64,000 nucleotides of DNA from a bacterium. Its GTDB lineage: Bacteria > Krumholzibacteriota > Krumholzibacteriia > LZORAL124-64-63. The notes under the pieces were generated by a model. The model ran no database searches. It had not been told where the DNA came from and was given only the letters and a program-made list of their open reading frames with translations. The position numbers and the translations under genes were made by a program. Shown here piece by piece: positions 43,332 through 61,999 of the stretch (the first letter of the stretch is position 1; each line of letters begins with the position of its first letter). Location: positions 1,404 through 65,403 of the forward strand of contig JAGRNP010000006.1 in NCBI GenBank assembly GCA_020440705.1, written 5' to 3'.

Positions 43332-43919
43332 ATGACCAGAACGCTCCTGCCGATCATCTTCCTGCTGCTGCCGGCCGCCGCCGGCGCGATCATCGATCCC
43401 ACGCCCGACGCCATCGGCATCTACTTCGACGCGACCGCGGACACCACCTGCGCCACGGTCGGCACCGCCGGGACGGTCGATGTCTACTACCTCATCACCA
43501 ACCCGACGGCGGCGGTGAGGAGGGTCATCGGGGAACGGCACGCCGAGTTCCCCACGGGCCTGGAAGGCCCGGTCCTGCCCGGTTCGCGGGGACTGCCCGA
43601 CGGGTGCTTCGACTGCATCGAGACGTCGCTCTACTGCACGGGCTGGATCGACGCCCAACTCGACCAGACCTGCAGCCCGCCGCTGGCGCCCGTCGACGGG
43701 GTCGTCATCGTCCGCAAGGTCAGCCTGACGTTCCTCGTGCCGACCGAGGTGGAGTTCTACCTGAGGCCGTCCGTTTACATCGACCCCGACGGTGGGGAGC
43801 ATGTGCTGTCCCCGAGCACCGGGGACTGGAACCTGCCCATGGCCACGATCAACGGCGACTGCGCGGTGGTGGGGGCGGAATCCGCCTCGTTCGGCGGGGT
43901 GAAGGCGCTGTACCGCTGA
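43332..43919 (+). CDS. Small secreted single-domain protein ending in a ...SFGGVKALYR tail
   Basis: Signal peptide ...AAAGA, domain IGIYFD...PMATING, C-terminal AESASFGGVKALYR. Confidence 0.8.
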   Translation: MTRTLLPIIFLLLPAAAGAIIDPTPDAIGIYFDATADTTCATVGTAGTVDVYYLITNPTAAVRRVIGERHAEFPTGLEGPVLPGSRGLPDGCFDCIETSLYCTGWIDAQLDQTCSPPLAPVDGVVIVRKVSLTFLVPTEVEFYLRPSVYIDPDGGEHVLSPSTGDWNLPMATINGDCAVVGAESASFGGVKALYR

Positions 43920-44046
43920 GTCCGGAGGGTTCCGGCCGCGACCCGGTCCCGCAGGGCCCGTCCACGGCCCGTTGCGGGCGAACCGGCCGCGGGACTATCT
44001 TGCCCGCCGCGACGGGGCACCACCCGCGAGGAAGGGCGAAGCGGTC

Positions 44047-45519
44047 ATGTCGAACAGAGGCGAAGCCGGATTCCCGGCGGCGCGCGGATTCCGCCGCGCC
44101 GTCCGCCGCCGCGCCCGACTCCTGCCGTTGGGGCTCGCCCTTCTCGGCCTGAGCGCCAGCGCCGCGCCGGCTGCCGCCCCGCCCTTCACCGACATCACTG
44201 TCGCCGCCGGCCTGGCCGATCCGGGCGCCGAGCGCGGCGTGGCCTGGGGAGACTACGACGGCGACGGCCGGCCCGACATCTTCATCGCCGTGCTCGACGG
44301 TCCGGACCGCCTCTACCGCAATCTCGGCGACGGCCGCTTCGCGGAGGTCCCCGGGCCCATGAACGATCCCGCCGGCCGTTCGGCCTGCGGGGCCTGGGGC
44401 GACTGGGACGGCGACGGCGACCTCGACCTCTTCGTGGGCCGGGTGGGCCCGAACGCCCTGTACCGCCAGGATCCGGACGGCTTCACCGACGTGCGGGCCG
44501 CCGCCGGCCTGTCCGACACCCTCGTGACCTGGGGCGCGGCCTGGAGCGACTTCGACGGCGACGGCCGTCTCGACCTCGCGGTGATCAACTTCGGGCTCCT
44601 GCCCAACAGCCTGTACCGCAACCTGGGAGATGGCCGCTTCGCCGACGTCGCCGCCGCGCTCGGGGTGGACGACGAGGGGCACGGCGCCACCGGCGCCTGG
44701 GGCGACTGGGACGGCGACGGCGACCTGGACCTCTTCGTGGCCAACAAGGACGGCGCCGACCGCCTCTTCCGCAACGAGGCGGGCGCGGGCTTCACCGACG
44801 TCACCGCGGCCGCCGGGATGCTCGAGGAGGGCGACAGCACGGGAGCCGTCTGGGGCGACGCCGACGGCGACGGCGACCTGGATCTCTTCGTGGCGCGCAA
44901 CCTCTCGGCCGACCGGCTCTTCCTCAACAACGGCGACGGCACCTTCGTCGAGGGTGCCGCGGCGGCAGGCCTGGCCTTCGCCGGCGCGAGCCGGGGCGGG
45001 GGCTGGGGCGACTGCGACAACGACGGCGACCTCGACCTCTTCCTCGCCGTGTCCGAGCAGCCCAGCCGCCTCTACCTGAACCTCGGCGACGGCCGCTTCG
45101 AGGAGGACGGCGCCGCGGCGGGCGTCGCCGAGGTGCCGGGCGCATCGGCGGCCTGGGCCGACCTCGACGGCGACGGCGACCTCGATCTGCTGCAGGGGAA
45201 TTTCGGCGGCCACCTGCGCTGCTTCGAGAATCGCCTGGAGACCGGCGCCGGCTGGCTCGCCGTCGATCTGCGCGGAGCGGGGGCGAACACCCGCGCCGTC
45301 GGCGCCACGGTGCGCGTCTTCGCCGGCGGGCGGGTGCTGCTGCGGCAGCAGACCATGGGCGGCGGCGGCTACCAGTCCCAGGCGCCGTCCCGCCTCCACT
45401 TCGGCCTCGGCGCCGCGCCCGTCGACTCGCTGGCCGTCACCTGGCCCGACGGGTCCGTGACGAAACAGGGCCCGACCCCCGGGGGCCGGACCCTGCGCCT
45501 CGTGCAACCGCGCGACTGA
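44047..45519 (+). CDS. FG-GAP/VCBS repeat protein with ASPIC/UnbV-like C-terminus (CRTAC1 family)
   Basis: Repeated W(G/S/A)D(Y/W/F/A/C/L)D(G/N)DG(D/R)xD motifs, C-terminal GATVRV...YQSQ...LHFGLG...VTWPDG. Confidence 0.88.
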   Translation: MSNRGEAGFPAARGFRRAVRRRARLLPLGLALLGLSASAAPAAAPPFTDITVAAGLADPGAERGVAWGDYDGDGRPDIFIAVLDGPDRLYRNLGDGRFAEVPGPMNDPAGRSACGAWGDWDGDGDLDLFVGRVGPNALYRQDPDGFTDVRAAAGLSDTLVTWGAAWSDFDGDGRLDLAVINFGLLPNSLYRNLGDGRFADVAAALGVDDEGHGATGAWGDWDGDGDLDLFVANKDGADRLFRNEAGAGFTDVTAAAGMLEEGDSTGAVWGDADGDGDLDLFVARNLSADRLFLNNGDGTFVEGAAAAGLAFAGASRGGGWGDCDNDGDLDLFLAVSEQPSRLYLNLGDGRFEEDGAAAGVAEVPGASAAWADLDGDGDLDLLQGNFGGHLRCFENRLETGAGWLAVDLRGAGANTRAVGATVRVFAGGRVLLRQQTMGGGGYQSQAPSRLHFGLGAAPVDSLAVTWPDGSVTKQGPTPGGRTLRLVQPRD

Positions 45520-45536
45520 GGTCGGCGGCAGCCGCC

Positions 45537-46115
45537 CTACTTCACCCGCTCGTAGACCAGATCCATGGCCTTCATCTCCTGGCCCTCCATGGTGTGCCAC
45601 ATGGCGAAGGTGACCTTGTCGTCCGAGACGAAGACCGTCTCCGAGCGCGAGGGGATGGTCATGGGTCCGAAGGTCATGTCCCCGGCGTGGCGCAGGGTCT
45701 TGCCGTCGGCGTCGAGCTGGCCGTGGGCCAGGTAGTAGCCGGTGCCGAAGTTGTCGATCCACATGCTGAAGTACTGCTGCGTGCTGTTGTCGTAGCCGTC
45801 GACGTTCATGCCGGCGAAGTCCTGGCCCATGGCCATGCCGGTGTGGTGACCCACGAAGTAGCGGCCGCCGAGGACGGCCTCGCCCCGGTAGGTGCCGGTG
45901 CTGGTGGTGGGCTCGGGGCCGTCCATGTAGGAGGTCATGGTGGTCTTCCACTCGCCGGTCAGCTTCGCCAGCAGCTGATGCTGCGGACCGGGCGTGGCGA
46001 GCTTGTACATCATCTCTTCCATGGCCTGCGGGTCCATCTGGGCGTCCTGGGCCAGCACGGGGAGCGCGCCGACCAGCAGGGCGGTCAGGGCCGCGAGAGC
46101 GAGCAACTTGCGCAT
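45537..46115 (-). CDS. Secreted DUF1579-like protein
   Basis: Signal peptide, then ATPGPQHQLLAKLTGEW, GYDN...SMWIDN and C-terminal YERVK. Confidence 0.75.
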   Translation of the reverse strand: MRKLLALAALTALLVGALPVLAQDAQMDPQAMEEMMYKLATPGPQHQLLAKLTGEWKTTMTSYMDGPEPTTSTGTYRGEAVLGGRYFVGHHTGMAMGQDFAGMNVDGYDNSTQQYFSMWIDNFGTGYYLAHGQLDADGKTLRHAGDMTFGPMTIPSRSETVFVSDDKVTFAMWHTMEGQEMKAMDLVYERVK

Positions 46116-46308
46116 GGATTTCTCCTGGGCAGGGGTGGATGGTCGTTCCAGGGCGGCGAACCCGTGGCCGCCGCATCCGGACACGATACGAGAGATCGGG
46201 GACGGCGGCATCACCCCGGGCAACAGTCGCGGCCCGTCTTCGTATGCGGGGAAATCAAGGCGGCGACCCGGTCGCCCCTCGTCGGAACCGGACACCGAAA
46301 GGACCAAC

Positions 46309-46500
46309 ATGGGATTCCTGTGGGAGATCGTGCAGTCGGGCATCGTCTACGGCCAGCACAAGAAGACCGAGACCCTCGAGGAGCGGGTCGTCGAACTGGA
46401 GCGGGGCCTGGAGGCCACCCAGGAAACGATCCGCAAGCTGGTGCGGAAACTCGAGGAGATCCACGGCCTGGACGTGGACGGCGACGGCCGCGTGGGCTGA
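46309..46500 (+). CDS. Small coiled-coil hypothetical protein (63 aa)
   Basis: AAAGGA SD. MGFLWEIVQSG...LEERVVELE...DVDGDGRVG. Confidence 0.7.
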   Translation: MGFLWEIVQSGIVYGQHKKTETLEERVVELERGLEATQETIRKLVRKLEEIHGLDVDGDGRVG

Positions 46501-46616
46501 ACCCGCCCGCGCCGTGGCCGTCGCCGCAAACCCTGCCGGGGTGGTCCTGCCGAAGGGCTGCCCCGGCGCCTCCGCAGCCCCGCGCGCTGCGGGCCCCACC
46601 CTTCCGGAGGAGAACC

Positions 46617-47813: not shown

Positions 47814-47827
47814 GGCCGTCGGTCGGG

Positions 47828-51164: not shown

Positions 51165-51333
51165 GACCGCGGACGCCGTCGCCCCGGCGGGCCCGACCAG
51201 GGGCCGGCCGGGGCGTGGTGGCGAAAGATCACAATAACGTGAATAATTGGGTATTGTTTTGAAACCTCAATTTGCTACACTGACTTGTCCTCACGATTGA
51301 TCAAGCATCATCAGCCCCGACGAGGTGACCACA

Positions 51334-54300
51334 TTGAAGACCACGCTTGCCCGCAGCGCCGTCCTGACGGCGGTGCTCCTCTTCGCCTTCGCCCTGGCGG
51401 CCGCGGCCGCGCCCGCGCCGCAGCCCTTCGCTCCGGTCCAGGGCGGCTATGTCGCCTCCGCCGAGACGGTCCTGCCCTGGGCCCCGGACCGGATCCTCGT
51501 CAAGTTCACGCCCGAGGCCCTGGCGTCCTCGCCCCTCGCGGCCAACAAGGGGCGCAAGGACATCGTCGCCAAGTCGACCTCGCTGCCCTCCCTGGACGCC
51601 CTGCTGGCCGAAGTCGGCGCCACGGGCATCCGCGCCGCCTTCCGGCAGCCCGCGGCCAAGGCCATGGCCGACGAGCTGGGCACCGGCCGGTGGTTCATGG
51701 TCGACCTGGGCGCCGGCGCCGACGTGCCCGCGGTCGCGGCCCGGCTGGCCACCGACCCGGGTCTCGAGTTCGCCCTGCCCGACCTGCGGGCCTTCCCCGC
51801 CGTGGCGCCCAACGACCCGCTCTATCCCAACAACTGGGGCCACGACAACACGGCCCAGCTGCCGGACCTCGACTGGGGCGGCACCTACGACCACACCCTG
51901 CCGACGACCGTCGGCACGCCCGGCTTCGACACCGACGCCGACCTGGCCTGGAACGGCAGCCAGGGCTTCGGCTCGAGCTCCGTGGTCATCGCGATCCTCG
52001 ACTCGGGTGTCGAGGCGGGCCACCCCGACCTGAACCAGATGGCCGGCTACGACTTCGGTGACGGCGACAGCAATCCCGACGACAACAGCGCCCAGGCCGG
52101 CCACGGCACCGCCTGTGCCGGCGTCGCGGCGGGCATCGCCGACAACGGCGTCGGCGTGGCCGGCGTCGCCGGCGGCTGCACGATCATGCCGGTGAAGGTC
52201 GCCGACAGCGGCGGCTCGCTCTTCTTCTCCTACATCGTCGACGGCGTGTACCACGCGGCCGACAACGGCGCCGACATCATCAGCATGAGCTTCGGCGCCT
52301 CGACCACCGCCTACGCGCCCATGGACGCGGCCATCACCTACGCCTGGAACGCAGGCGTGACCCTGCTCGCGGCCACCGGCAACAACAACGGCGGGACGAT
52401 CCACTACCCGGCCTACAACCTGCGCGTCATCGGCGTCGGCGCCGCGTCGCCCTGCGGCGAGCGCAAGCGCTCCTCGAGCAGCAGCGGCGAGGTCAACCCG
52501 GGCGTGAGCACCGATCCCAACGGCTACACCTGCGACGGCGAGCGCTGGTGGGGCTCGAACTACGGCGTCAACATCCAGGACCACCAGGGTGCCGTCGACG
52601 TCATCGCCCCGACCATCCTGCCGACGACCGACATCCTCGGCGCCGGCGGCTACGATCCGACGAACTACTCGAAGTTCTTCAACGGCACGTCCTGCGCGAC
52701 CCCGTACGCGGCCGGCGTGTGCGCCCTGATCAAGTCCAAGAACCCCGGCTTCACGCCGACCCAGGTCTGGGACCAGCTCACCGCGACGGCCATGGACGTG
52801 GTCAGCGTCGAGTCGGGCGCCGGCTGGGACCGCTACACCGGCTACGGCATGGTGAACGCGTCCGACGCCGTGGGCGGCGGCGTGTCGGCCCCGGTCGCCA
52901 ACTTCAGCGCCTCGACTGCCTCGGGCTGCCTGCCCCTGCTGGTCGACTTCACCGACCTCTCCACGGGCACCGTCGACACCTGGTCCTGGACCTTCGGCGA
53001 CGGCGGCACCTCGAGCGCCCCGAGCCCGTCGCACTCCTACACGGCGGCCGGCCTCTACACGGTCTCCCTCACGGTGTCCGGCCCGGGCGGCGCCGACGTC
53101 CTGACCCTGACCGACCTGATCCAGGTCGACGGCCCGCCGACCGCGGCGTTCTCGGCCGCCCCGACCACGGTCCTCGTCGGCGACCCCGTGGCCTTCACCG
53201 ACCTGTCGACCGACGCCACGGCCCGGCTGTGGTCCTTCGGCGACGGGAACACCTCGACCCTCGCGAACCCCAGCCACGCCTACGCGGCGGCGGGTCTGTA
53301 CACCGTCAGCCTGCTCGTCTCCAACGGCTGCGGCGACGACACCATGACCTCCGTCGACCTGATCAGCGTCGTGGCGCCGGCCATCAACGTGGCCGTCAGC
53401 CCCGTCGATCCCGGCATCGGCACCGTCTCGCTGTACTCCCGTCCGGACGGCGCCGGCGATCCGCTCAGCGCCGCCCAGGACTGGGACGGCGTCGTGGGCA
53501 ACGCCCCCGCCATCGTCGATGCGACCATCAAGGTGGTCCTGACCGACGCCTTCGGGGCGCCGGTCGTGGGCTTCCCCGCGGCCGGGATCACGGTGCAGTC
53601 GTCGGCCGGCGGCTGGAACCAGTGCGAGCCCCTGGCCGCCGACGGACCCACCGACGCCAGCGGCACCACGACCATCAGCGGCGCCCTCTTCGCCGGCGGC
53701 TCCAGCGCGTCGGGCGAACTGCTGCAGGTGGTCGTCGACGACCCCGCGGTCGGCGCCATCACCTACCCGGGCGGCCTGGCCGGACTCGACTACCGCGTCA
53801 ACAGCTCGGACATCAACGGCGACCTGGCGGCGAACCTGATCGACGTGCCCCTCTTCGCCACCGCCTTCCACGGCGGGACGTACGTCTACGGCGCCGACTT
53901 CTTCTGGACCGGCTCGATCAACCTGACCGACGTCACCCTCATCGCGTCGGGCCTCGGCGCGGTCTGCCCGGCCAAGGTCGCCGCCGACCAGGTCGCCGTC
54001 GGCGGCCGCATGGGCGTGCTCTTCGACGACGAGGGCCTGCGCCCGTCCCGGGACCTCGCGCCCGGCCGTCAGGTCGAGGCCTGGGTCGTCCTCGAGGGCG
54101 ACGCCGCGGCGCGGGGCATCAGCGCCTGCGAGTTCACCCTGCGCGCCAGCGACAACGTGGAGATCCACGCGGTCGAGACGGTCGGCGGCGGGCTCGACCT
54201 CGGGTCCGACCGCACGGTCATCGTCGGCTGGGCCGCGCCCCGTGCGGCCACCGGCAACGCGCCGCTGAAGCTCGCCAGGGTGCAGCTCTCGGTCACCGAC

Positions 54301-54750
54301 GAACTGCCGGCCCACCTCTGGCTCGAGGCCGGCCGCGCGGCCGGGCTGGACGAGCCCGCGGTCGTCGTCGACGGCGGGATGCTGCGGGCGGCGCCCGTCT
54401 CCGGCGATGTCGCCGACCCGGTGGCCAGCCTGAACGACAAGGACTTCAGCCTCGAGGGCGACACCCCGCTGGTGCGGAAGCTCGCCATGGCCGTCGCGCC
54501 GAACCCGTTCAACCCGCGCACCGAGATCCGCTTCGCGCTGCCGGCCGATGGCGACGTCCAGCTGCAGGTCTTCGACGCCCGGGGCACCCTGGTCGCGACC
54601 CTGATCGACGGCAGCCTGGGCGCCGGCGAGCACACCGCGGTGTGGAACGGCACCGACCGGCACGGCCGCCACGTGGCCTCCGGGGTCTACTTCTCGAGCC
54701 TGCGCACCGACTCCGGTCGCGTCATGCAGAAGATGCTGCTCATGAAGTAG
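51334..54750 (+). CDS. Secreted S8 subtilase with two PKD domains, dockerin-like repeats and FlgD-Ig/T9SS-like tail
   Basis: TTG start after GAGGTG. Triad ILDSG, HGTACAG, GTSCATP. PKD WTFGDG/WSFGDG. DINGD...D repeat. APNPFNP...KMLLMK. Confidence 0.92.
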   Translation: MKTTLARSAVLTAVLLFAFALAAAAAPAPQPFAPVQGGYVASAETVLPWAPDRILVKFTPEALASSPLAANKGRKDIVAKSTSLPSLDALLAEVGATGIRAAFRQPAAKAMADELGTGRWFMVDLGAGADVPAVAARLATDPGLEFALPDLRAFPAVAPNDPLYPNNWGHDNTAQLPDLDWGGTYDHTLPTTVGTPGFDTDADLAWNGSQGFGSSSVVIAILDSGVEAGHPDLNQMAGYDFGDGDSNPDDNSAQAGHGTACAGVAAGIADNGVGVAGVAGGCTIMPVKVADSGGSLFFSYIVDGVYHAADNGADIISMSFGASTTAYAPMDAAITYAWNAGVTLLAATGNNNGGTIHYPAYNLRVIGVGAASPCGERKRSSSSSGEVNPGVSTDPNGYTCDGERWWGSNYGVNIQDHQGAVDVIAPTILPTTDILGAGGYDPTNYSKFFNGTSCATPYAAGVCALIKSKNPGFTPTQVWDQLTATAMDVVSVESGAGWDRYTGYGMVNASDAVGGGVSAPVANFSASTASGCLPLLVDFTDLSTGTVDTWSWTFGDGGTSSAPSPSHSYTAAGLYTVSLTVSGPGGADVLTLTDLIQVDGPPTAAFSAAPTTVLVGDPVAFTDLSTDATARLWSFGDGNTSTLANPSHAYAAAGLYTVSLLVSNGCGDDTMTSVDLISVVAPAINVAVSPVDPGIGTVSLYSRPDGAGDPLSAAQDWDGVVGNAPAIVDATIKVVLTDAFGAPVVGFPAAGITVQSSAGGWNQCEPLAADGPTDASGTTTISGALFAGGSSASGELLQVVVDDPAVGAITYPGGLAGLDYRVNSSDINGDLAANLIDVPLFATAFHGGTYVYGADFFWTGSINLTDVTLIASGLGAVCPAKVAADQVAVGGRMGVLFDDEGLRPSRDLAPGRQVEAWVVLEGDAAARGISACEFTLRASDNVEIHAVETVGGGLDLGSDRTVIVGWAAPRAATGNAPLKLARVQLSVTDELPAHLWLEAGRAAGLDEPAVVVDGGMLRAAPVSGDVADPVASLNDKDFSLEGDTPLVRKLAMAVAPNPFNPRTEIRFALPADGDVQLQVFDARGTLVATLIDGSLGAGEHTAVWNGTDRHGRHVASGVYFSSLRTDSGRVMQKMLLMK

Positions 54751-54773
54751 GCTGATCGGGTTTCCGAACGGAC

Positions 54774-54807: not shown

Positions 54808-54870
54808 GATGGCACAACCCCTTGACCCATCCGGGCACGTCCCGCACCATGCGGCACGGAGGTCTCCGTC

Positions 54871-56286
54871 ATGCCGCACTCCCCGCGCCCCCGCAGCCCC
54901 CTGTCCGCCCTGCGGCGCCGGAACCGGGCCACGGTCGTGCTGGCCGCGCTCCTGGCCTGTGCGGTCCCGCTCGCCGGCTGCGAGCGCACGCCGCCGCGGC
55001 CGAACATCCTGCTCGTTTCCCTCGACACGACCCGGGCCGACCACCTGTCGGCATACGGCTACGGGCAGCCGACCTCGCCCTTCCTGGCGGAGCTGGCCGC
55101 CGAGGGGGCGCTCTTCCGGCGCGCCTACGCCAGTGCTCCGGCCACGGCGCCGTCCCATGCCACCATGTTCACCGCGCTGTCGCCCCTCAGCCACCGCGTC
55201 GTGCGCAACGCCGTCACCCTGGGCGAACAGCACGTGACCCTGGCCGAGCGGCTGGCCGGTGCCGGCTACGAGACCGCGGCGGTCGTCAGCTCGTTCGTGC
55301 TCAACGCCCGCTTCGGCCTGGCACAGGGGTTCGCCAGCTACGACGACGAGTTCGACCGCGAGGGGGCGTCCGTGTCGTGGCGCCGCTGGGAAGGACTCGA
55401 GCTGACCGGTGCCTTCGACCGCCGCGCCGACGTGACCACCGACCGGGCCCTCGCCTGGCTCGCCGCCGGGCGGCGCGATGCCCCGTTCTTCCTCTTCGTC
55501 CACTACTTCGACCCCCACGACCCCTACGAGCCGCCGCCGTCGTACCGGGGACGCTTCGCGGGGCCGGCCGACGTGGCCGATGCCGACCGGCGGCGGCAGG
55601 TCGCGCTCTACGACGGGGAGATCGCCTTCGTCGACGACCAGCTGCGCCGCCTGTGCGCCGGTCTCGCCGCGATGGGCCTCGCCGACGACACCCTCGTCAT
55701 CGTGGTCGGCGACCACGGTGAGGGTCTGTGGCAGCGCGGCTACCAGTTCCACGGCGCCCAGATCACCGAGGAGGCGGTGCGCGTGCCGTGGATCGTGCGC
55801 TGGCCCGCGGGGATCCGGCCGGGCCGTGAGACGGGCCTGCCGGTGACCATGGCCGACCTGCTGCCGACGGTGTGCGAACTGGTGGGCGTGTCCGCCGGCG
55901 ATGGTGCCGTGCATGGTCGGAGCCTGGCGTCCTTCCTGCGCGAGGGCGAGGCGCCTCCCGATCGACCCGTGTTCCTGTACCGCATCCCGTACGAGCCCCA
56001 CGAGGAGTACGGCGTGTGGGTCGACGGCGAGAAGCACGCCGTGCGCTACGGACGCTGGAAGTACCTCGCGTCGGCGACCGAGCACACCACCGAGCTCTAC
56101 GACCTGAACGCCGATCCCGGCGAGACGCGCGACCTCGGCGCCGTGGAGACCGGCGTGGCGGCCGACATGGCGGGGCTGCTCGACGACTGGCTCGAAGCCG
56201 TGACCCGGCCCGACTCGCTGACCATCCGGCCCGAACTCTCGGACACCGATCGGGAGAAGCTGCGCTCCCTGGGCTACGTGCGATGA
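54871..56286 (+). CDS. Sulfatase-like hydrolase/transferase (alkaline phosphatase superfamily), lipoprotein
   Basis: Lipobox LAGC, SLDTTRAD, TAPSH at the nucleophile position, HYFDPH and GDHGE. Confidence 0.85.
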   Translation: MPHSPRPRSPLSALRRRNRATVVLAALLACAVPLAGCERTPPRPNILLVSLDTTRADHLSAYGYGQPTSPFLAELAAEGALFRRAYASAPATAPSHATMFTALSPLSHRVVRNAVTLGEQHVTLAERLAGAGYETAAVVSSFVLNARFGLAQGFASYDDEFDREGASVSWRRWEGLELTGAFDRRADVTTDRALAWLAAGRRDAPFFLFVHYFDPHDPYEPPPSYRGRFAGPADVADADRRRQVALYDGEIAFVDDQLRRLCAGLAAMGLADDTLVIVVGDHGEGLWQRGYQFHGAQITEEAVRVPWIVRWPAGIRPGRETGLPVTMADLLPTVCELVGVSAGDGAVHGRSLASFLREGEAPPDRPVFLYRIPYEPHEEYGVWVDGEKHAVRYGRWKYLASATEHTTELYDLNADPGETRDLGAVETGVAADMAGLLDDWLEAVTRPDSLTIRPELSDTDREKLRSLGYVR

Positions 56287-57866
56287 GGGCGCACCTGCCG
56301 GGCGGCATCCGGCCCGCCGCGGCCCTGTTCCTCGTCTGCGCCCTCGCGGGATGCGCCGCGCGCGACGACGCCACGGTCCCGGACCGGCCGCTCTTCCGCA
56401 CCGTCGAGGCGTCCGGCCTGCCCGCGGTGGGCATCAGTTTCGGCGCCACCTGGGCCGACGTCGACGGCGACACGCGCGCCGACCTCGTGCTCGGACGCCA
56501 CGGCGGCGGCGTCTCGGTGCGCCTGGCCCGTCCGGGGCTGCGCTTCGCGGCGGTCGACAGCTGCGCCCTGTTCCCCTGCCGCGCGTTCGACATGCACGGT
56601 CTGGCCGCCTGCGACTACGACCGCGACGGCATCTGGGAGTTCTACGTGGCGGTGGGCGCGGACCGGGGCACCGGCCAGGGGCCCAACGAACTCTGGGACC
56701 GGGCGGGCGACGGCCCCTACCGCAACGTCCTGTCCTCCGACGACCTGCCGGCGGTGCCGCGCGGCCGGGGCCGCGGCGCCATCTGGCTCCCTCTCGACGA
56801 CGACCCCTGGCCCGAACTCCTGGTTCTCGACTACAACTCGCCGTCGCGGCTCTTCCGCTGGGACGGCCGGGCGTGGTCCGACTGGAGCGACCGCGTGGCG
56901 ACCTACCTGCGGGGCCGGCCGAGAAACGTCGACCCGCAGGGCGCCCTCGGCCGCTGGAACACCGTGGCCACCGTGGCCGATTTCGACGGCGACGGCCGCC
57001 TCGACCTCTTCCTCGCGGGCGACGGCCAGACCCTCTTCCTCGCGGGCCCCGGCGGCACCCTCACCGACGTGACGGTCGCCGCGGGCCTGCCCACCGGCGG
57101 CGCGAAGCTGGTGGCCGCGCCCGCCGGCGACGTCGATGGCGACGGCGATCCCGACCTGCTGTACGTGCCGCGTCTCGCCGCCGGCCTCGTCCTCTGGCGG
57201 AACGTGAGCACCCCCGGCGCGCCCCGCTTCGCACCCGGGCCGCCCCTCGACGCCCTGTCGCTCGCGCCCGAACGGGATGCGGCGGTCCTGGCCGACCTGG
57301 ACAACGACGGCCGCCTCGACCTCTACGTCATGCAGCAGGCGTCCGAGACGCAGAACGCCCCCGATCTGCTGGCCCGGGGCGACGGCGCCGGCCGCTTCGA
57401 CGACATGACCTCGGTGTGGGGGAGTCCGGCCGTGGCGGCCCTGCCCCGGGGCGTGTGGCCCATCGACCCGGACCGCGACGGCGACCTTGACCTCGTCCTC
57501 GTGCACGGCAAGGGGGATTTTCCGCAGCGCGCCGGCCTTGTCGTGCTGCGCGCCAACGAGGCGCCGGGCGCCGGGGTGACGCTCGCGTTCGACGGCAGCG
57601 GCGGCCCGGCCCACGGCATGGGTGCCCGGGTCGAGCTGCGCGGCCGGCACGGCACGTGGCGGCGCCAGGTCCGGCCGGTGATGGTGCACTGGAACGCGAC
57701 GGTGCCGCCGCTGCACTTCGGTGTGGGCGAGGACGAGGGTCCGTTCGAGCTCGTGGTGACGTGGCCCGACGGGGCGGTGCGGCAGTTCGAACTGCCGTCC
57801 GCCCGCGCCGCCTACCTGGTCTCGGCCGCGACCGGTTCGGCCCTGCAGTTGCCTGCGACCGACTGA
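56283..57866 (+). CDS. FG-GAP repeat / ASPIC-UnbV (CRTAC1 family) lipoprotein
   Basis: ATGA overlap with the sulfatase-like stop. Lipobox LAGC, DxDGDG repeats, C-terminal GARVEL...LHFGVG...VTWPDG. Confidence 0.82.
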   Translation: MRAHLPGGIRPAAALFLVCALAGCAARDDATVPDRPLFRTVEASGLPAVGISFGATWADVDGDTRADLVLGRHGGGVSVRLARPGLRFAAVDSCALFPCRAFDMHGLAACDYDRDGIWEFYVAVGADRGTGQGPNELWDRAGDGPYRNVLSSDDLPAVPRGRGRGAIWLPLDDDPWPELLVLDYNSPSRLFRWDGRAWSDWSDRVATYLRGRPRNVDPQGALGRWNTVATVADFDGDGRLDLFLAGDGQTLFLAGPGGTLTDVTVAAGLPTGGAKLVAAPAGDVDGDGDPDLLYVPRLAAGLVLWRNVSTPGAPRFAPGPPLDALSLAPERDAAVLADLDNDGRLDLYVMQQASETQNAPDLLARGDGAGRFDDMTSVWGSPAVAALPRGVWPIDPDRDGDLDLVLVHGKGDFPQRAGLVVLRANEAPGAGVTLAFDGSGGPAHGMGARVELRGRHGTWRRQVRPVMVHWNATVPPLHFGVGEDEGPFELVVTWPDGAVRQFELPSARAAYLVSAATGSALQLPATD

Positions 57867-59062
57867 GCCGCCCCGGCCGCCGGCAACCCGAGGGTGAAGC
57901 GGGCGCCGCCCCCGGCAGGGCTCTCGGCCTCGAGGGTGCCGCCGTGGGCGGTGACGATCTCCCGGCAGATGGCCAGACCCAGTCCCGTGCCCAGCTCGGC
58001 GGGCTTCGTGGTGAAGAAGGGATCCCAGATCGACTGGAGGGTCCCGTCGGGAATGCCGGGCCCGTCGTCGGCCACGGTGATGGCGACCCCGTCGCCGTCC
58101 GGTCGCGTGGTCACGGTGATGACCCCGCGACCGTCCATGGCCTGGGCCGCGTTGTTGATCAGGTTCACGAAGACCTGCACGATCTGCTGGGGCTGCACCT
58201 GGACCTCGCGCCCTGCGAGTCCGAAATCCCGGCGCACCTCGATGCCGTACTTCAGCACGTTCTGGCACAGCAGCAGGGCGTGCTCCACGAGGTCCTCCGG
58301 GTCTGCGAGGCTCTTCTCGCCGGGATTCTTGCGCGAGAAGCTCTTCAGCCCGTCGCTGATGGCCACGATGCGGTCCACGCCGGAGCTGATGTCGGCGAGC
58401 ATGGCCGGGATCTCGTCGGTCAGGTAGGCGAGGTCCTCGCCGTCGCCGAAACCGCGCGCGCGGCAGTCGGCGAGACAGGCCCGCACGTCCGGCCACCACG
58501 ACTGCAGGGTCTGGAGGTTGCCGGCGACGAAGGACAGGGGGCTCTTGATCTCGTGGGCCAGTCCCGCGCTCATGGTGCCGAGGGTGGCCAGGCGGTCCTG
58601 GTGCAGCAGCTGGCGGGCGCGGGCCTCGGCCAGCCGCTCCATCTCGACGGCGTACCGGTCCAGCGCGATGCGCGCCCGCTTCTTCTCCACGGCGTAGCGC
58701 AGGGTGCGGGTCAGGAGCGAACCCTGCCGCACCTCCTGCTTCACCAGGTAGTCGTCGGCGCCGAGGTGCATGGCGGCCATGGCCAGGCTCTCGTCGTCGC
58801 AGCCGGTGAAGACCACGAGCGGCACCTCGCGGTCCACCTCGCGGACCCGCGTCACGGTTTCCACGCCGGTCGACTCGGGCAGGGTCAGATCGAGGATCAC
58901 GACGTCGACGGCCTGATCGCGCAGGTGGGCGGTGGCCGCGGTCAGGTTGTCGCAGGCGTGCAGGCTGAAGGCGGCATGGGGATCGTCCCGGAGCATGGCC
59001 GAGACGACCTGGCGGGCGGTGGCGCTGTCCTCGATCAGCAGGACCCGGATCTTGGTGTCCAT
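57812..59062 (-). CDS. REC-HisKA-HATPase hybrid (receiver-fused histidine kinase)
   Basis: LLIEDS...ILDLTLP...YLVK, H-box AHEIKSPL, NLINNA, DDGPG, FFTTK and GTGLGL. Confidence 0.92.
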   Translation of the reverse strand: MDTKIRVLLIEDSATARQVVSAMLRDDPHAAFSLHACDNLTAATAHLRDQAVDVVILDLTLPESTGVETVTRVREVDREVPLVVFTGCDDESLAMAAMHLGADDYLVKQEVRQGSLLTRTLRYAVEKKRARIALDRYAVEMERLAEARARQLLHQDRLATLGTMSAGLAHEIKSPLSFVAGNLQTLQSWWPDVRACLADCRARGFGDGEDLAYLTDEIPAMLADISSGVDRIVAISDGLKSFSRKNPGEKSLADPEDLVEHALLLCQNVLKYGIEVRRDFGLAGREVQVQPQQIVQVFVNLINNAAQAMDGRGVITVTTRPDGDGVAITVADDGPGIPDGTLQSIWDPFFTTKPAELGTGLGLAICREIVTAHGGTLEAESPAGGGARFTLGLPAAGAAQSVAGNCRAEPVAAETR

Positions 59063-59214
59063 GCCTGGCAACTCCCGTAGAGGCGATGGGAACGGGTGCG
59101 AACCCGTCCCCGGGTATCGGCACATGGGAAGTTCCGTTAAAGGGATACTTATTGTCAAAATCGTGCCGCAGGACAAGATGGTTCGATTCGGCCGGCCAAT
59201 GGGGTAGAATGGCT

Positions 59215-59244
59215 CGGAACCGGAACCGGAACTGGAACCGGACC
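59215..59244 (+). repeat. Five tandem hexamers (CGGAAC-like) in the 5' leader of the 59258 gene
   Basis: cggaac cggaac cggaac tggaac cggacc, between TAGAAT (59205-59210) and the AAGGGGGA SD. Confidence 0.8.
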
Positions 59245-59257
59245 AAGGGGGAACATC

Positions 59258-61999
59258 ATGCGCAGATCTCTGCTTGTCTTCGTGGCGGTCGTGTTGGCGG
59301 CAGCCACCGCCCGTGCGGACATCGGCGACCCGGACCGTCTGGCCGCCTACACCGACGCCGCCTGGACGCGTGCGGTCACCACCAACGCCACAGCACCTGA
59401 CACCGTCACCATCCATTTCGTGCTCGAGGGACCCAGCCGCGGCGGCGACATCGCGAGCCTGCGCCAGACCTTCGCCTTCGGATCGCTGAAGCTGCTCGCC
59501 GTGTCGCGCGGCCACGTGGAACAGCCCTACCCGTTCGTCGACTACCACGAAATGATCATCGAGGGTGAGGATGCGATCCCCATCGTCGACCGCACGGAGG
59601 TCTTCACCATGACCTTCGAAGTGCCCGACACGGGCGCTCACGTGCTGTCCGGCTCCGGGGCCGACTGCACGATAGTGGGCGAAACCGACACCTACACCCT
59701 CCATTGGCCCTACCAGACGTCGGCCGTGGCCTGGATCAACCCGCCGCCGCCGCAACTGCACTTCACGGTGACTTCGTACTTCGCCGGCGAGATCCTCGTC
59801 GGGGTCGAGTCCCAGAATAACCTCTCGCTCGTCAACACCGGCGGGCCTTCGTTCGCCGCGCCCGCTTTCGTTTCGTCGAGCGGGGCCTTCCGCATCGACG
59901 ACCTGGACGACCTGGCCATGATCAGCCCGGGCAGGAACCGCGCGATCCGGATCCGTTTCACGCCGCCCACCGTGGGTCTGCACGAGGCATCCCTCGACGT
60001 GGGCGACGCCTCGCTCGCGATGGCCGGCCTGGGGCGCGGCGCCGAGTATCTCCTGTCCCGACCCGACACGCTGATGCTGCCGCCGGGTCTCGTGGGCCAG
60101 ATCCGCACCGCCGCGCTCCCGGTGTTCAACGAGGGGCGTGATCCGGTGCCCCTCGTCACGTCCCCGCTGACGTGCGGCGATTTCACGGTGACTCCGATCG
60201 ACGCCCCGGCGTCGCTCATGCCGGGGCAGTGGGCCTCGTTCTCCGTCCGCTATACGGTCCGCGACTCGGTCACGAACTTCTGCGCCTTCGACGTGGCGGC
60301 GCCGCCCGCCGCCGGGGCCGGCACCTTCGTCGCCGTCGGGTCCGCGCGCGAACCGAACTTCCTGGTCACCGTGTCGACGGACACCCTTGATTTCGACCCG
60401 GCGGAGGTCGGCTCGACGTCGTCGGCGTCGGTGACGGTGCGGAATTCCGGCGACTTCCCCGCCCGGATCGTGCCGGTCATCGCGCCGGCGGGCGAGCCTT
60501 TCCAGTACCTGGGGGCGCCGGAGTTCGACCTGGCCCCCGGCCAGGGCGTCACCCTCCACCTGCGCTGCGGCGGCACCACCCCCGGCGAGTTCGCGGCGGT
60601 GCTCGAACTGGGCGAGGACTGCCCCGCCGTGGTCCTGCGCGGCTCCGTCGTGGAGCGCCTCTACGCCCTGGAGGTCGACCCGCCCGTCCTCGAGTTCACC
60701 GATACGACGCCCGGCACCGAGTCCACCCGGACCTTTACGATGCGCAACACCGGTGCAGCGCCCCTGACCCTGGAGATGCGCTGTCCGGACCCGCAGGTCA
60801 GCGTCCCGACCGGGAGTGAGCCCATCGCCCCCGGCGAGGTGCTCGCGGTGACGGTCGGGTTCGTGCCCGCCGAGTACGGCTACTACGAGTTCACGTCACG
60901 CCTCGTGCACGAGCTCGACGTGATGCTCCCCGGCCGCGTCTGGCCCCGATTCGATTTCGGTCCGGACGAGAACCGGGTCGCCCTGCACTTCGATCCCGAC
61001 TTCGCCACCGACGAGATCACCATCGAGCCGGTGCCGCAGGTCGTGCCCGCCCACCTCGTCCTGCACGCGCCGTCCGACGCCCTGGGCGTGCTCGGCTGGG
61101 AGTGCCGGCTGGGCCTGCCCGCCGGCGTGACCCTCGCCGGCTGGGACACCTACGGCGACGTCATCAACGCCAGCGACCCGCCCGAGTTCACCGTGGGCCT
61201 CGCCTCCCCGCTGCCCCAGGCGGCGAACGTGCCCCTGGCCACGTTCTACCTGCTGGCCTGGGACGTCGCACGCGATGAGCTGCCCCTGTCCCTGCTGCCG
61301 AAGTCGGTGCCGTCCCTGATCGGCCTGATGGCCTGGGCGCCGGGTTCGGACGTGGAGAACCTGACCGCCATGCTGCCGGCGAGCGGCGACTCGGTCGTGG
61401 CGCGCATCCGCGTGCGCAACGCCGTGGCGATCGCGTTGCCCACGCCCCGCGTGGAGGCCGGTCCGGACGGGGTGAGGCTGACCTGGCCCAATGGGGCCGG
61501 ACCCGACGGCGGCTACCACGTGTGGCGCCGCGTCGGCGACGGCCCCGCCCGGCGCCTGACCGCGACGGTGCTCACGGCCGATGGCCCCGAGATCGTGTGG
61601 TTCGACGCGACCCCCGGCCGCCGGCCCGACGCCCTGACGACCTACGCCTATGCCCTGGTGGTGGCCGGTCGCGAACTGGGGCGCAGCCCCGAGGCCGGCC
61701 TCGACGCCGGAGATCTGCCCCAGGTCACGCGCCTGCTGCCCAATGTGCCGAATCCATTCAACCCGAGCACCGCGATCCGTTTCGAGGTGGCGCGCATGGG
61801 GCCGGTGGAGGTGGCCGTGTACGACCTGGCGGGACGGCGCGTGCGCACCCTCGTCGCGGCCGAGATGGCGCCCGGGGCCTACGCGCCTCTGTGGGATGGC
61901 CGCGACGACGGGGCCCGCCCGGTGCCGAGCGGCGCCTACATGGTGCGGCTGATGACGCCCGACGGAGTGGACCGGCGCAAGGTGACGCTGCTGAAGTAG
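59258..61999 (+). CDS. Secreted multi-Ig protein (ASH/HYDIN-like repeats) with FlgD-Ig/T9SS-like tail
   Basis: Signal peptide, repeated F...VG......V/L.N.G segments (VTVRNSG, FTMRNTG, LVNTGG), VPNPFNP...RKVTLLK. Confidence 0.82.
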   Translation: MRRSLLVFVAVVLAAATARADIGDPDRLAAYTDAAWTRAVTTNATAPDTVTIHFVLEGPSRGGDIASLRQTFAFGSLKLLAVSRGHVEQPYPFVDYHEMIIEGEDAIPIVDRTEVFTMTFEVPDTGAHVLSGSGADCTIVGETDTYTLHWPYQTSAVAWINPPPPQLHFTVTSYFAGEILVGVESQNNLSLVNTGGPSFAAPAFVSSSGAFRIDDLDDLAMISPGRNRAIRIRFTPPTVGLHEASLDVGDASLAMAGLGRGAEYLLSRPDTLMLPPGLVGQIRTAALPVFNEGRDPVPLVTSPLTCGDFTVTPIDAPASLMPGQWASFSVRYTVRDSVTNFCAFDVAAPPAAGAGTFVAVGSAREPNFLVTVSTDTLDFDPAEVGSTSSASVTVRNSGDFPARIVPVIAPAGEPFQYLGAPEFDLAPGQGVTLHLRCGGTTPGEFAAVLELGEDCPAVVLRGSVVERLYALEVDPPVLEFTDTTPGTESTRTFTMRNTGAAPLTLEMRCPDPQVSVPTGSEPIAPGEVLAVTVGFVPAEYGYYEFTSRLVHELDVMLPGRVWPRFDFGPDENRVALHFDPDFATDEITIEPVPQVVPAHLVLHAPSDALGVLGWECRLGLPAGVTLAGWDTYGDVINASDPPEFTVGLASPLPQAANVPLATFYLLAWDVARDELPLSLLPKSVPSLIGLMAWAPGSDVENLTAMLPASGDSVVARIRVRNAVAIALPTPRVEAGPDGVRLTWPNGAGPDGGYHVWRRVGDGPARRLTATVLTADGPEIVWFDATPGRRPDALTTYAYALVVAGRELGRSPEAGLDAGDLPQVTRLLPNVPNPFNPSTAIRFEVARMGPVEVAVYDLAGRRVRTLVAAEMAPGAYAPLWDGRDDGARPVPSGAYMVRLMTPDGVDRRKVTLLK

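What the first reader, a model, noticed from the sequence alone, without database searches (positions are those of the whole stretch)
43413..61420. Shared ~140-aa domain in three unrelated secreted proteins plus a dockerin-like pair: possible cohesin-dockerin-type surface assembly system
Seen: one domain recurs at ~43413-43860 (stand-alone), ~54004-54438 (S8 protease) and ~60977-61420 (multi-Ig protein). Starts are IGIYFD / MGVLFD / VALHFD; next strand VDVYYL / VEAWVV / VPAHLV; GISACEF / GVLGWEC in two; VGWAAP / VGLASP in two; ends PSTGDWNLPMATIN / PVSGDVADPVASLN / PASGDSVVARIR. In the protease it directly follows SDINGDLAANLIDVPLF...ADFFWTGSINLTDVTLI (53806-53950), a duplicated Ca-loop-plus-helix pattern like a type I dockerin. 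Established: cohesin-dockerin pairs assemble extracellular multi-enzyme complexes. Inference: the domain is a cohesin-like beta-sandwich. A protease with both modules could polymerise or recruit other enzymes, and the stand-alone copy with the ALYR tail and a consensus promoter could be the cell-surface anchor. That would be a proteolytic or adhesive cellulosome-like scaffold in a little-studied lineage. The fold assignment is by eye only.
Basis: partly seen in the sequence, partly recalled or inferred. Interest (0 to 1): 0.7.

Follow-up and report, generated by a model that had tools for sequence, protein, structure and literature searches.

The report
Hidden cohesin-dockerin surface docking kit
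Three secreted proteins of an uncultured Krumholzibacteria-like bacterium share an unannotated "socket" domain with the cohesin fold, and the protease among them also has a real dockerin "plug". This points to a cellulosome-style snap-together system on a Gram-negative cell surface, but binding has not been tested.

Summary
The three segments belong to one domain family. A profile built only from 19 paralogous copies elsewhere in the genome scores them at E 8e-38, 7e-20 and 1e-8. The genome holds about 30 copies in 24 proteins. Public data hold about 1,900 clusters, and none has a Pfam or NCBIfam name.

Two independent AlphaFold models (pLDDT 76.6 and 94.9) both have cohesins as nearly all of their best PDB matches. 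No sequence method links the family to cohesins.

The module at 53806-53985 is a true dockerin by profile (E 4.9e-9 to a solved dockerin). It always follows a conserved, beta-rich ~135-aa "X" module.

The link between plug and socket is genomic:
- The two are fused in enzymes with different catalytic heads.
- Small X-dockerin genes sit directly beside stand-alone socket genes in at least six genera, usually followed by a C25 peptidase gene.
- Every socket protein ends in a sorting signal, either a T9SS-type CTD or a short ...WGxVKALYR tail. Free plug proteins never do.

Most likely this is a surface cohesin-dockerin system. The protease cassette is probably self-docked. It is a new variant of a known kind.

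The parts
43267..43295 (+). Promoter-like site TTGACA-17-TAGCAT, 37 nt upstream of the P0001 start codon. An AAGGGGGAAAG ribosome-binding stretch follows it.
   Evidence: 10 of 12 consensus positions match; 1 site found against 0.1 expected in shuffles. Sequence read. This is a consensus match only.
43332..43919 (+). P0001, 195 aa: signal peptide, one cohesin-fold module, and a short C-terminal tail.
   Evidence: More than 169 stand-alone homologues exist, none with a Pfam domain, and 118 of 120 end in K-A-L-Y/F-R.
43404..43856 (+). Cohesin-fold module of P0001 (residues 25-175). It is the most divergent of the three copies, with a Cys-rich insert at residues ~90-115.
   Evidence: The profile built without the window copies gives E 1.1e-8. 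The AF2 model has pLDDT 76.6 and pTM 0.72. The top Foldseek matches are cohesins 2vo8, 2w1n, 2jh2 and 1qzn, with probability 1.00 and TM (target) 0.62-0.66.
43887..43916 (+). C-terminal tail SFGGVKALYR, a candidate sorting or anchoring signal.
   Evidence: About 39 ORFs of the genome end in (W/F)GxVKALYR-type tails on unrelated domains. No NCBIfam or Pfam model matches it.
51325..54750 (+). P0002, 1141 aa: signal peptide, S8 subtilase, 2 PKD domains, X module, dockerin, cohesin-fold module, and a T9SS-type CTD.
   Evidence: An orthologue with the same architecture, P0124, is 1143 aa.
51976..52848 (+). Peptidase S8 catalytic domain (residues 218-508).
   Evidence: Pfam PF00082, E 1.5e-42.
52921..53367 (+). 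Two PKD domains (residues 533-681).
   Evidence: Pfam PF18911 and PF00801.
53392..53805 (+). X module (residues 690-827): a beta-rich ~135-aa module that precedes the dockerin in eight of the nine dockerin proteins of this genome; the other has a shorter Cys-rich region. It has one invariant Cys.
   Evidence: Alignments A4 and A6. Modelled with pLDDT 95-98. No Pfam or PDB sequence match.
53806..53985 (+). Dockerin (residues 828-887). It has two loop-helix repeats. The first loop, DINGDLAANLID, is canonical. The second, DFFWTGSINLTD, is degenerate at loop positions 3 and 5. The module ends in a conserved Cys-Pro.
   Evidence: The family profile matches solved dockerins, with 2y3n_B at E 4.9e-9 and nearly all further hits being dockerins. 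Two helices are modelled at residues 840-850 and 867-876. Pfam PF00404 scores below its threshold here but is on record for 70-82% identical homologues of a paralogue.
54007..54438 (+). Cohesin-fold module of P0002 (residues 895-1038), joined to the dockerin by a linker of a few (~7) residues.
   Evidence: The profile built without the window copies gives E 7e-20. The cassette model has pLDDT 94.9 and pTM 0.89. About 45 of the 50 listed Foldseek matches are cohesins, and 2vo8 gives E 1.4e-5 with TM (target) 0.69.
54493..54738 (+). T9SS-type C-terminal sorting domain (FlgD-Ig-like), residues 1057-1138.
   Evidence: TIGR04183 scores 26.4 bits against a cut-off of 23, and PF13860 scores 36.2 against 27. 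A PorU orthologue is present in the genome at 475 bits against a cut-off of 420.
59258..61999 (+). P0003, 913 aa: signal peptide, three choice-of-anchor-D/HYDIN-type Ig domains, a cohesin-fold module, an Fn3-like stretch and a CTD. The architecture is scaffoldin-like.
   Evidence: Paralogues and relatives carry 2-4 copies of the module between the same Ig domains.
59333..59458 (+). Possible degenerate N-terminal copy of the module (residues 26-67).
   Evidence: Only a weak match: 9 bits in the full profiles and not significant in the leave-out profile. Seven paralogues have a clear copy at this position.
60971..61411 (+). Cohesin-fold module of P0003 (residues 572-718). This is the canonical type of the family, with the GWEC, VGLASPLP and SLxGxMAW motifs.
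   Evidence: The profile built without the window copies gives E 8e-38 over the full length. It was not modelled itself; the fold is inferred from family membership.
61742..61984 (+). T9SS-type C-terminal sorting domain of P0003 (residues 829-909).
   Evidence: PF13860 scores 29.9 bits against a cut-off of 27. TIGR04183 scores 21.2, just under its cut-off of 23.

Best explanation
The shared ~145-aa domain is a very divergent, so far unannotated module with the cohesin fold (the 'socket'). The 60-aa module in the protease is a dockerin (the 'plug'). The dockerin always follows a conserved, beta-rich X module, as in the X-dockerin dyads of type II/III cellulosome anchoring.

Proposed mechanism (inferred):
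1. Socket proteins are exported and fixed to the cell envelope by their C-terminal signal. That signal is either a T9SS-type CTD, processed by the PorU sortase present in the genome, or the short WGxVKALYR tail.
2. X-dockerin proteins have only a Sec signal and no tail. They are held on the cell, or carried out, by binding a socket. Binding is probably Ca-dependent.

For the three window proteins:
- In the S8 protease, plug and socket are fused with a short linker. They most likely dock onto each other within one chain and form a rigid X-Doc:Coh stalk between the enzyme and its CTD anchor. Head-to-tail swapping between molecules is the less likely alternative.
- P0003 is an anchored scaffoldin-like protein with one clear socket and one possible degenerate socket.
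- P0001 is an orphan stand-alone socket with the short tail. It would hold one of the five small X-dockerin proteins encoded elsewhere in the genome.

Shown here: family membership, both folds, gene fusions, gene neighbourhoods and tail asymmetry. Inferred: binding, Ca dependence, cis docking and surface location.
For: Family membership: the profile built without the window copies gives E 8e-38, 7e-20 and 1e-8. Iterations from each copy converge on the same ORFs.

Fold: two models built from different alignments, P0001 and the P0002 cassette, both give cohesins as nearly all top PDB matches, with probability 1.00 and TM (target) up to 0.69.

Dockerin: the profile hits solved dockerins, best E 4.9e-9. 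The first Ca loop is canonical. Close homologues carry PF00404. The Pfam dockerin model touches no other ORF of the genome.

Gene fusion: the X-Doc-Coh-CTD cassette is conserved at 49-57% identity behind different heads. These are S8+PKD, GH32/43-like, LamG and a head with no Pfam match.

Gene neighbourhood: tandem X-Doc and Coh-tail genes occur in G000 contigs C2 and C110. They also occur in G001, G003, G004, G009 (twice), G020, G023 and an NCBI MAG, so in at least 6 genera. In G005 the dockerin hit lies at the contig end a few hundred bases before two Coh-tail genes.

Tail asymmetry: essentially all Coh proteins of the genome end in a CTD or a KALYR-type tail (one ORF is cut by its contig end), and the seven stand-alone dockerin proteins end at the dockerin. 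118 of 120 stand-alone Coh homologues carry the tail. 119 of 120 X-Doc homologues end in ...CP and none carries a tail.

Compact cassette: pTM is 0.89 for a three-module, 361-aa construct, and the linker blocks have pLDDT 81-95.

T9SS: a PorU orthologue scores above its curated cut-off, and about 45 other ORFs match the CTD part of that model.
Against: - No sequence method links the family to cohesins. Pfam Cohesin gives no hit. The profile against PDB sequences gives nothing. hhalign against the genome's two more canonical cohesin-like ORFs is not significant. The fold could therefore be convergent or simply a general beta-sandwich.
- Sockets outnumber plugs about 30 to 9 in this genome, the reverse of cellulosomes. 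Many sockets may have other ligands.
- The genome also has cohesin-like ORFs closer to the Pfam model, C98_17367-17990 and C88_3180-4073. These could be the real partners.
- The second Ca loop of the window's dockerin is degenerate.
- Model coordinates and PAE were not available. Which surfaces touch in the cassette is therefore unknown.
- P0001 has no X-Doc gene next to it.
Confidence: 0.6

Rival explanations
1. The domain is a cohesin-shaped beta-sandwich that does not bind dockerins. It would act as a stalk or spacer in front of C-terminal sorting signals, or bind another ligand such as a glycan, the envelope or itself. The dockerins would bind something else or nothing.
For: There is no sequence similarity to cohesins. 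There are about 30 sockets against 9 plugs. In stand-alone proteins the module always lies just before the tail. The same tail is carried by about 28 proteins with unrelated domains. Several relatives outside the family have dockerins but no detectable socket, namely G026, G028, G033, G036 and G038.
Against: Fusion and tandem neighbourhood with X-Doc recur in at least 6 genera. By chance a given gene has a socket gene as direct neighbour in only about 1% of cases in this genome. The multi-Ig proteins also carry N-terminal copies far from any tail. The best Foldseek matches are cohesins, not CBMs or Ig domains.
Confidence: 0.22
2. The dockerins are real, but their partners are the more canonical cohesin-like ORFs elsewhere in the genome (C98_17367-17990 with a KALYR tail, C88_3180-4073 with a CTD, and C143). 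The family studied here would be a bystander.
For: Pfam Cohesin gives its only hits, all below threshold at 17-21 bits, to these ORFs. They carry the same two kinds of sorting signal.
Against: None of them lies on a contig with a dockerin gene. They are singletons with no paralogues. The studied family is the one that is fused to X-Doc and neighbours it.
Confidence: 0.08
3. One reading: the protease polymerises head to tail, or recruits other enzymes in trans, giving a proteolytic cellulosome-like complex on a scaffold.
For: The protease carries both a plug and a socket. Relatives include scaffoldin-like proteins with up to 4 sockets and a CTD. Cassette-bearing enzymes of several classes exist.
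Against: The cassette is modelled as one compact unit with a short, ordered linker. A fusion of partners usually means binding within one chain. Only two large cassette proteins with dockerins occur in this genome (an S8 protease and one with an unassigned N-terminal region), and most plugs sit on small proteins with no catalytic domain. No CBM-bearing scaffoldin was seen.
Confidence: 0.15

Closest known systems
Type II/III X-dockerin:cohesin anchoring pairs of clostridial and ruminococcal cellulosomes. Examples are C. thermocellum CipA XDoc with SdbA or ScaA-type cohesins (PDB 2b59, 5k39) and R. flavefaciens (4iu2).
   Same: The dockerin is always preceded by a beta-rich X module. The cohesin side carries the cell-anchoring signal and the dockerin side does not. 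The cohesin fold and the dockerin profile both match.
   Different: The anchor is a T9SS-type CTD or a short KALYR tail on a diderm, not an SLH domain or sortase motif. The cohesin family has no detectable sequence similarity to known ones. The X module has no match in Pfam or among PDB sequences. Most plug proteins have no enzyme. A Cys in X and the C-terminal Cys-Pro suggest a disulfide clasp, which is an inference.
Non-cellulosomal cohesin-dockerin enzyme complexes of Clostridium perfringens. The cohesins 2vo8, 2jh2 and 2w1n are the best structural matches here. PMC12997984 summarises five enzymes with a single cohesin each and one GH31 with both Coh and Doc.
   Same: Single cohesins are carried on enzymes. 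One polypeptide can carry both modules. The system is not cellulolytic. These are the best Foldseek matches.
   Different: The organism is a Gram-positive pathogen whose complexes are secreted, not T9SS-anchored. Its modules are recognisable by sequence. There are no small X-Doc/Coh operons.
Predicted cellulosome-like system of 'Ca. Stygibacter' (Cloacimonadota), as described in PMC8542988.
   Same: It is a candidate phylum of the FCB group. Dockerins sit on an S8 peptidase and on glycosidases. A cohesin scaffoldin with a T9SS CTD is proposed as the surface anchor.
   Different: There the modules were found by InterPro, so they are canonical. The scaffoldin is 3,755 aa with tandem cohesins and CBMs. 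Here the sockets are invisible to Pfam, mostly single, often on ~200-aa proteins with a different tail, and fused in cis in the enzymes.
Non-cellulosomal cohesin- and dockerin-like modules across the three domains of life. This refers to Peer et al. 2009, cited in PMC8542988, and to the A. fulgidus cohesin 2xdh.
   Same: Cohesin and dockerin modules occur outside cellulolytic bacteria, often in low numbers and with unknown partners. 2xdh is among the structural matches.
   Different: Those modules were found by sequence similarity, and this family was not.

Membership tests
Cohesin (Pfam PF00963) | Elongated beta-sandwich of the cohesin type. | tested here: met
   AF2 models of P0001 (pLDDT 76.6) and the P0002 cassette (pLDDT 94.9) were searched with Foldseek. 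Cohesins of types I, II and III and non-cellulosomal cohesins are nearly all of the best matches. Probability is 1.00 and TM (target) is 0.62-0.69. The P0003 copy was not modelled; its fold is inferred from family membership.
Cohesin (Pfam PF00963) | Significant match to the family's sequence model or to known cohesin sequences. | tested here: not met
   No Pfam hit at E <= 0.1 for any of the three proteins. PF00963 searched over the whole genome touches none of these ORFs. The A5 profile against PDB sequences has a best E of 0.38, to ferritin. hhalign to two cohesin-like ORFs gives probability below 2%.
Cohesin (Pfam PF00963) | Specific, usually Ca-dependent, binding of a dockerin. | not testable with these tools
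   Only indirect evidence is available: fusion and neighbourhood with X-Doc genes and a compact cassette model with pTM 0.89. No multimer prediction and no model coordinates were available.
Dockerin (Pfam PF00404) | Two ~22-residue repeats, each an EF-hand-like Ca loop (D-x-N/D-x-D-G-x-x-N/D-x-x-D) followed by a helix. | tested here: met
   Alignment A1. In P0002 the first loop is DINGDLAANLID. The second is DFFWTGSINLTD, which lacks the usual acidic or amide residues at loop positions 3 and 5. Two helices are modelled at residues 840-850 and 867-876. The profile hits solved dockerins, best E 4.9e-9.
Dockerin (Pfam PF00404) | Score above Pfam's gathering threshold of 22.9 bits. | tested here: not met
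   P0002 gives no hit at E <= 0.1. Paralogues score 12.5-18.8 bits. Eight homologues of the C110 X-Doc protein, 56-82% identical to it, do carry a precomputed PF00404 hit.
T9SS cargo with type A CTD | C-terminal sorting domain that matches the curated models. | tested here: met
   P0002: TIGR04183 scores 26.4 against 23, and PF13860 scores 36.2 against 27. P0003: PF13860 scores 29.9 against 27, and TIGR04183 scores 21.2, just below 23. P0001 has no CTD.
T9SS cargo with type A CTD | T9SS machinery present in the same genome. | tested here: inconclusive
   The PorU sortase orthologue at G000:C22:4437-7838 scores 475 bits against a cut-off of 420. The other components (SprA, PorV, GldKLMN) were not searched.
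Cellulosome-type multi-enzyme complex | A scaffoldin with several cohesins plus many dockerin-bearing enzymes and a substrate-binding module. | tested here: not met
   Proteins of the P0003 type have 1-2 sockets, and relatives have up to 4. Only 2 of 9 dockerin proteins of this genome have a large N-terminal region, only one of them a recognisable enzyme. No CBM was found on socket proteins.

The most novel reading that the evidence does not exclude
The conserved gene set of X-dockerin gene(s), two or three cohesin-fold genes with WGxVKALYR tails, and a CTD-bearing C25 peptidase could encode a new surface-attachment pathway of FCB-group candidate phyla. In this reading the PorU-like C25 peptidase acts as a dedicated sortase for the short KALYR tail, which about 39 proteins in this genome carry. 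The tail-anchored sockets would then hold, or carry through the outer membrane, X-dockerin proteins that have no sorting signal of their own. That would be protein-mediated piggyback display in a diderm, based on a cohesin family of about 1,900 clusters that no database recognises.
Probability: 0.15. Interest if true: 0.8.

Novelty: new variant of a known kind. Interest (0 to 1): 0.55.

Why it matters
Cohesin-dockerin pairs are the classic high-affinity building blocks of extracellular protein assemblies and are widely used in protein engineering. They are nearly always discussed for Gram-positive cellulolytic bacteria.

This work adds three things:
- A socket family that sequence databases cannot see. 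It has about 1,900 clusters at 50% identity and no Pfam or NCBIfam name.
- An X-dockerin dyad that goes with that socket family.
- Two kinds of outer-membrane sorting signal on the socket side only.

Together these give testable partners for asking how Sec-only proteins are held on the surface of T9SS-bearing bacteria from little-studied phyla. They also offer new orthogonal plug-socket pairs for synthetic biology. If binding fails, the family still deserves a name as a widespread surface module with the cohesin fold.

Tried and rejected
- Pairwise BLASTP of the three segments was too weak to decide.
- Pfam and NCBIfam scans gave nothing for the shared domain, the X module or the tail.
- The socket family profile against PDB sequences gave only chance hits.
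- The X-module profile against PDB sequences hit only the designed 'Pizza' propeller proteins. This is one short stretch that fails on its own, so it was rejected as spurious.
- hhalign of the family against the two more canonical cohesin-like ORFs, C98 and C88, was not significant.
- phmmer iterations seeded with C98 and C88 found no paralogues.
- The idea that P0001 has an adjacent dockerin partner was rejected. Its upstream genes are a 607-aa and a 332-aa protein with no Pfam match, and the downstream gene is an FG-GAP/ASPIC protein.
- The idea that the three window genes form one operon was rejected. They are separated by unrelated secreted-protein genes, including a sulfatase, FG-GAP/ASPIC proteins and a DUF1579 protein.
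- An N-terminal second copy in P0003 has only a weak, non-significant match.
- The model coordinates and PAE are not given out, so the Doc-Coh interface in the cassette could not be inspected.
- No literature was found on cohesin or dockerin in Krumholzibacteria.

Full report
SETTING. The window is contig C374:1404-65403 of a 4.36-Mb, 407-contig, ~71% G+C genome. Close homologues of its proteins come from MAGs labelled Krumholzibacteria or Krumholzibacteriota. The finding covers three genes on the + strand:
- P0001, 43332-43919, 195 aa.
- P0002, 51325-54750, 1141 aa. It has an S8 subtilase at residues 218-508, two PKD domains at 533-681 and a FlgD-Ig/T9SS-type CTD at 1057-1138.
- P0003, 59258-61999, 913 aa. 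It has three choice-of-anchor-D/HYDIN-type Ig domains and the same CTD.

All three start with a signal peptide. They are not one operon. Between them lie genes for an FG-GAP/ASPIC protein, a DUF1579 protein, a sulfatase, a second FG-GAP/ASPIC protein and several ORFs with no Pfam match.

OBSERVATION. Pairwise BLASTP is only marginal: P0002-P0003 gives E 1e-3, P0001-P0002 gives E 9e-3 over the last 29 residues, and P0001-P0003 is not significant. Neither Pfam nor NCBIfam sees the region.

Profiles settle the question. I laid the genome out as 32,539 six-frame ORFs. phmmer and HMM iterations started from each of the three segments converge on the same ~24 ORFs with ~30 domain copies. A profile made from 19 paralogous copies, with all three window copies left out, scores P0003 at 8e-38, P0002 at 7e-20 and P0001 at 1.1e-8 against that ORF set.

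P0001 is the outlier. It has a Cys-rich insert and matches the profile in two pieces, but it aligns end to end at 27-34% identity with seven stand-alone paralogues. The shared domain is therefore real.

FOLD. Two AlphaFold2 jobs used different alignments.
- P0001 with 95 stand-alone homologues gave pLDDT 76.6 and pTM 0.72, with only the Cys-rich insert poorly modelled.
- P0002 residues 690-1050 with cassette orthologues and paralogous modules gave pLDDT 94.9 and pTM 0.89.

Foldseek against the PDB returned cohesins as nearly all of the best matches in both cases. These included the C. perfringens cohesins 2vo8, 2jh2 and 2w1n, type I (1anu, 1ohz, 2ccl), type II (1qzn, 3l8q), R. flavefaciens type III (5n5p, 5aoz) and A. 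fulgidus 2xdh. Probability was 1.00, TM normalised to the target reached 0.69, and sequence identity was 10-17%. Other beta-sandwiches (DUF4466, pMMO, SoxYZ, pilins) ranked lower or had poor TM.

At the sequence level nothing links the family to cohesins. There is no PF00963 hit, no hit of the family profile among PDB sequences, and no significant hhalign match to two more canonical cohesin-like ORFs of the same genome. I therefore call it a module with the cohesin fold. Common descent with cohesins is likely but not shown.

DOCKERIN AND X MODULE. The segment at 53806-53985 has eight relatives in the genome. Their alignment shows two repeats of a Ca-loop pattern followed by a helix, with consensus NSPDLNGDGxVNLxDVPxFA...SDFxxDGxINLxDVVxLAxxLGAxCP. 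A profile of it hits solved dockerins almost exclusively. The best is 2y3n_B at E 4.9e-9, followed by 4wi0, 4u3s, 4fl4, 1ohz and 2ccl.

Pfam Dockerin_1 stays below its threshold on this genome. It is, however, on record for several 56-82% identical homologues, and it touches no other ORF of the genome.

In P0002 the first loop is canonical. The second, DFFWTGSINLTD, lacks the usual residues at loop positions 3 and 5.

Each of these dockerins, apart from the shorter Cys-rich ORF on contig C76, is preceded by the same beta-rich ~135-aa module, which has no database match. I call it X by analogy with X-dockerin dyads. X has one invariant Cys, and the dockerin ends in a conserved Cys-Pro. A disulfide clasp between them is my inference.

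HOW PLUG AND SOCKET ARE LINKED.

(i) Fusion. The block X-Doc-socket-CTD of P0002 is conserved at 49-57% identity in ten public proteins. Their N-terminal parts differ: S8+PKD, GH32/43-like, LamG, and a ~600-aa region with no Pfam match that also occurs in the paralogue on contig C371.

(ii) Neighbourhood. In this genome the small proteins made of signal peptide, X and Doc on contigs C2 and C110 are followed directly by stand-alone socket genes. The same tandem arrangement is seen in seven more relatives, G001, G003, G004, G009 (two loci), G020 and G023, and in NCBI MAG GCA_039714075.1. In G005 a dockerin hit at the contig end lies just before two Coh-tail genes. That covers at least six genera. 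In most of these loci a ~1,460-1,550-aa C25 peptidase with a CTD follows.

(iii) Asymmetry of sorting signals. All socket proteins of the genome, apart from one ORF cut by its contig end, end either in the CTD or in a short ...(W/F)GxVKALYR-type tail. All seven stand-alone dockerin proteins stop at the dockerin. Among public homologues, 118 of 120 stand-alone sockets have the tail. 119 of 120 small X-Doc proteins end in ...CP and none has a tail.

(iv) Co-occurrence. The dockerin is found in 37 of 41 related genomes. The socket is found in 31 of 41, including all 25 genomes of the same family, at 2-32 copies each.

A PorU sortase orthologue above its curated cut-off is present, and about 45 further ORFs match the CTD part of that model.

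SUBFAMILIES. A tree of 43 socket modules puts the three window copies in three different groups.
- P0003 falls with the multi-Ig, CTD-anchored scaffoldin-like proteins. Relatives of this type carry up to four sockets.
- P0002 and its paralogue sit on their own long branch, the fused type.
- P0001 is on a long branch among stand-alone sockets that sit in X-Doc clusters in other genera. Its placement is weakly supported.

MECHANISM. Taken together, the sockets are most likely the anchored partners and the X-dockerins the held partners, as in the anchoring of cellulosomes.

For the protease, I take docking within one chain as the most likely state. The reasons are the fusion of both partners with a short linker, the confident modelling of that linker, and a pTM of 0.89 for three modules. 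This would give a rigid stalk between the enzyme and the anchor. Head-to-tail swapping is the alternative. I could not inspect coordinates or PAE, so the interface is not established.

P0001 would hold one of the five small X-Doc proteins encoded elsewhere. It has a plausible promoter of its own, TTGACA-17-TAGCAT at 43267-43295.

The function of the small X-Doc proteins is unknown.

CAVEATS. Sockets outnumber plugs about 3 to 1, and only two dockerin proteins of this genome have a large N-terminal region, one of them a recognisable enzyme. 'Cellulosome-like' therefore fits the coupling principle, not the composition. The genome also holds cohesin-like ORFs nearer to the Pfam model (C98 with a KALYR tail, C88 with a CTD, and C143) that could compete as partners. 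None of them lies near a dockerin gene.

COMPARISON AND NOVELTY. The closest known systems are these:
- X-dockerin:cohesin anchoring pairs of clostridia and ruminococci.
- The non-cellulosomal enzyme complexes of C. perfringens. Their cohesins are the best structural matches here, and one GH31 there carries both modules (PMC12997984).
- The cellulosome-like system predicted for Cloacimonadota with a T9SS CTD anchor (PMC8542988).

I found no paper that mentions dockerins in Krumholzibacteria. The new elements are:
- A socket family invisible to sequence databases: 1,863 clusters at E <= 1e-3 and 1,088 at E <= 1e-10 among 1.84 billion representatives.
- Its X-Doc partner module.
- The cis-fused cassette.
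- The small-gene operon with a C25 peptidase.
- The use of two different sorting signals on the socket side.

Earlier notes of this scan describe similar hidden cohesin-dockerin kits with T9SS tails in other FCB lineages. I treated them as leads only.

VERDICT. This is a new variant of a known kind. Binding remains to be shown.

Noticed in passing
window 43887-43916; genome-wide in G000: About 39 ORFs end in ...(S/T)(W/F)GxVKALYR-type tails. The tail sits on unrelated domains, for example a TlpA-like thioredoxin (C76_17676) and a CHRD-like protein. Only 11 of the 39 carry the socket module. No Pfam or NCBIfam model matches the tail. It behaves like a general C-terminal sorting signal.
   Followed up: partly
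G000 contig C110:37772-44868 (outside the window); L013:1415-8038; L001-L005: A conserved gene set runs X-dockerin gene(s), then two or three socket genes with the KALYR tail, then a ~1,465-aa C25 (gingipain/PorU-like) peptidase with a CTD. It is seen in at least 8 genomes. The peptidase could process the tails or be part of the assembly.
   Followed up: partly
G000 contigs C98:17367-17990 (-), C88:3180-4073 (-), C143:27479-34777 (-): Three other ORFs give hits to Pfam Cohesin that fall below threshold, at 17-21 bits. One ends in the KALYR tail and one in the FlgD-type CTD. The genome may therefore hold a second, more canonical kind of socket with the same two anchoring signals.
   Followed up: partly
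window 59333-59458: The N-terminus of P0003 has a weak, partial match to the socket profile. Seven paralogues have a clear second copy at this position. It is probably a decayed copy.
   Followed up: partly
G000 contig C22:4437-7838 (-): A PorU (T9SS sortase) orthologue scores above the curated cut-off. About 45 further ORFs match the CTD part of that model, so T9SS-type cargo is abundant in this genome.
   Followed up: partly
window 37855-40290, 43972-45519, 54871-56286, 55872-57866: The neighbourhood is rich in other secreted proteins. It holds an 811-aa protein with the same CTD, two FG-GAP/ASPIC (CRTAC1-type) proteins and a sulfatase. None has a socket or a dockerin.
   Followed up: no
X modules and dockerin ends (window 53392-53985 and paralogues): There is one invariant Cys in the X module, and 119 of 120 small X-Doc homologues end in Cys-Pro. 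A disulfide that staples the dockerin's C-terminus to X is plausible. It would be a covalent counterpart of the 'intramolecular clasp' described for the R. flavefaciens ScaA dockerin (PMC3821032).
   Followed up: no
public protein P0183 (1,567 aa): This protein is an S8 subtilase with four stretches that match the socket profile and no recognised CTD. It may be a protease that is itself a multi-socket scaffold.
   Followed up: no
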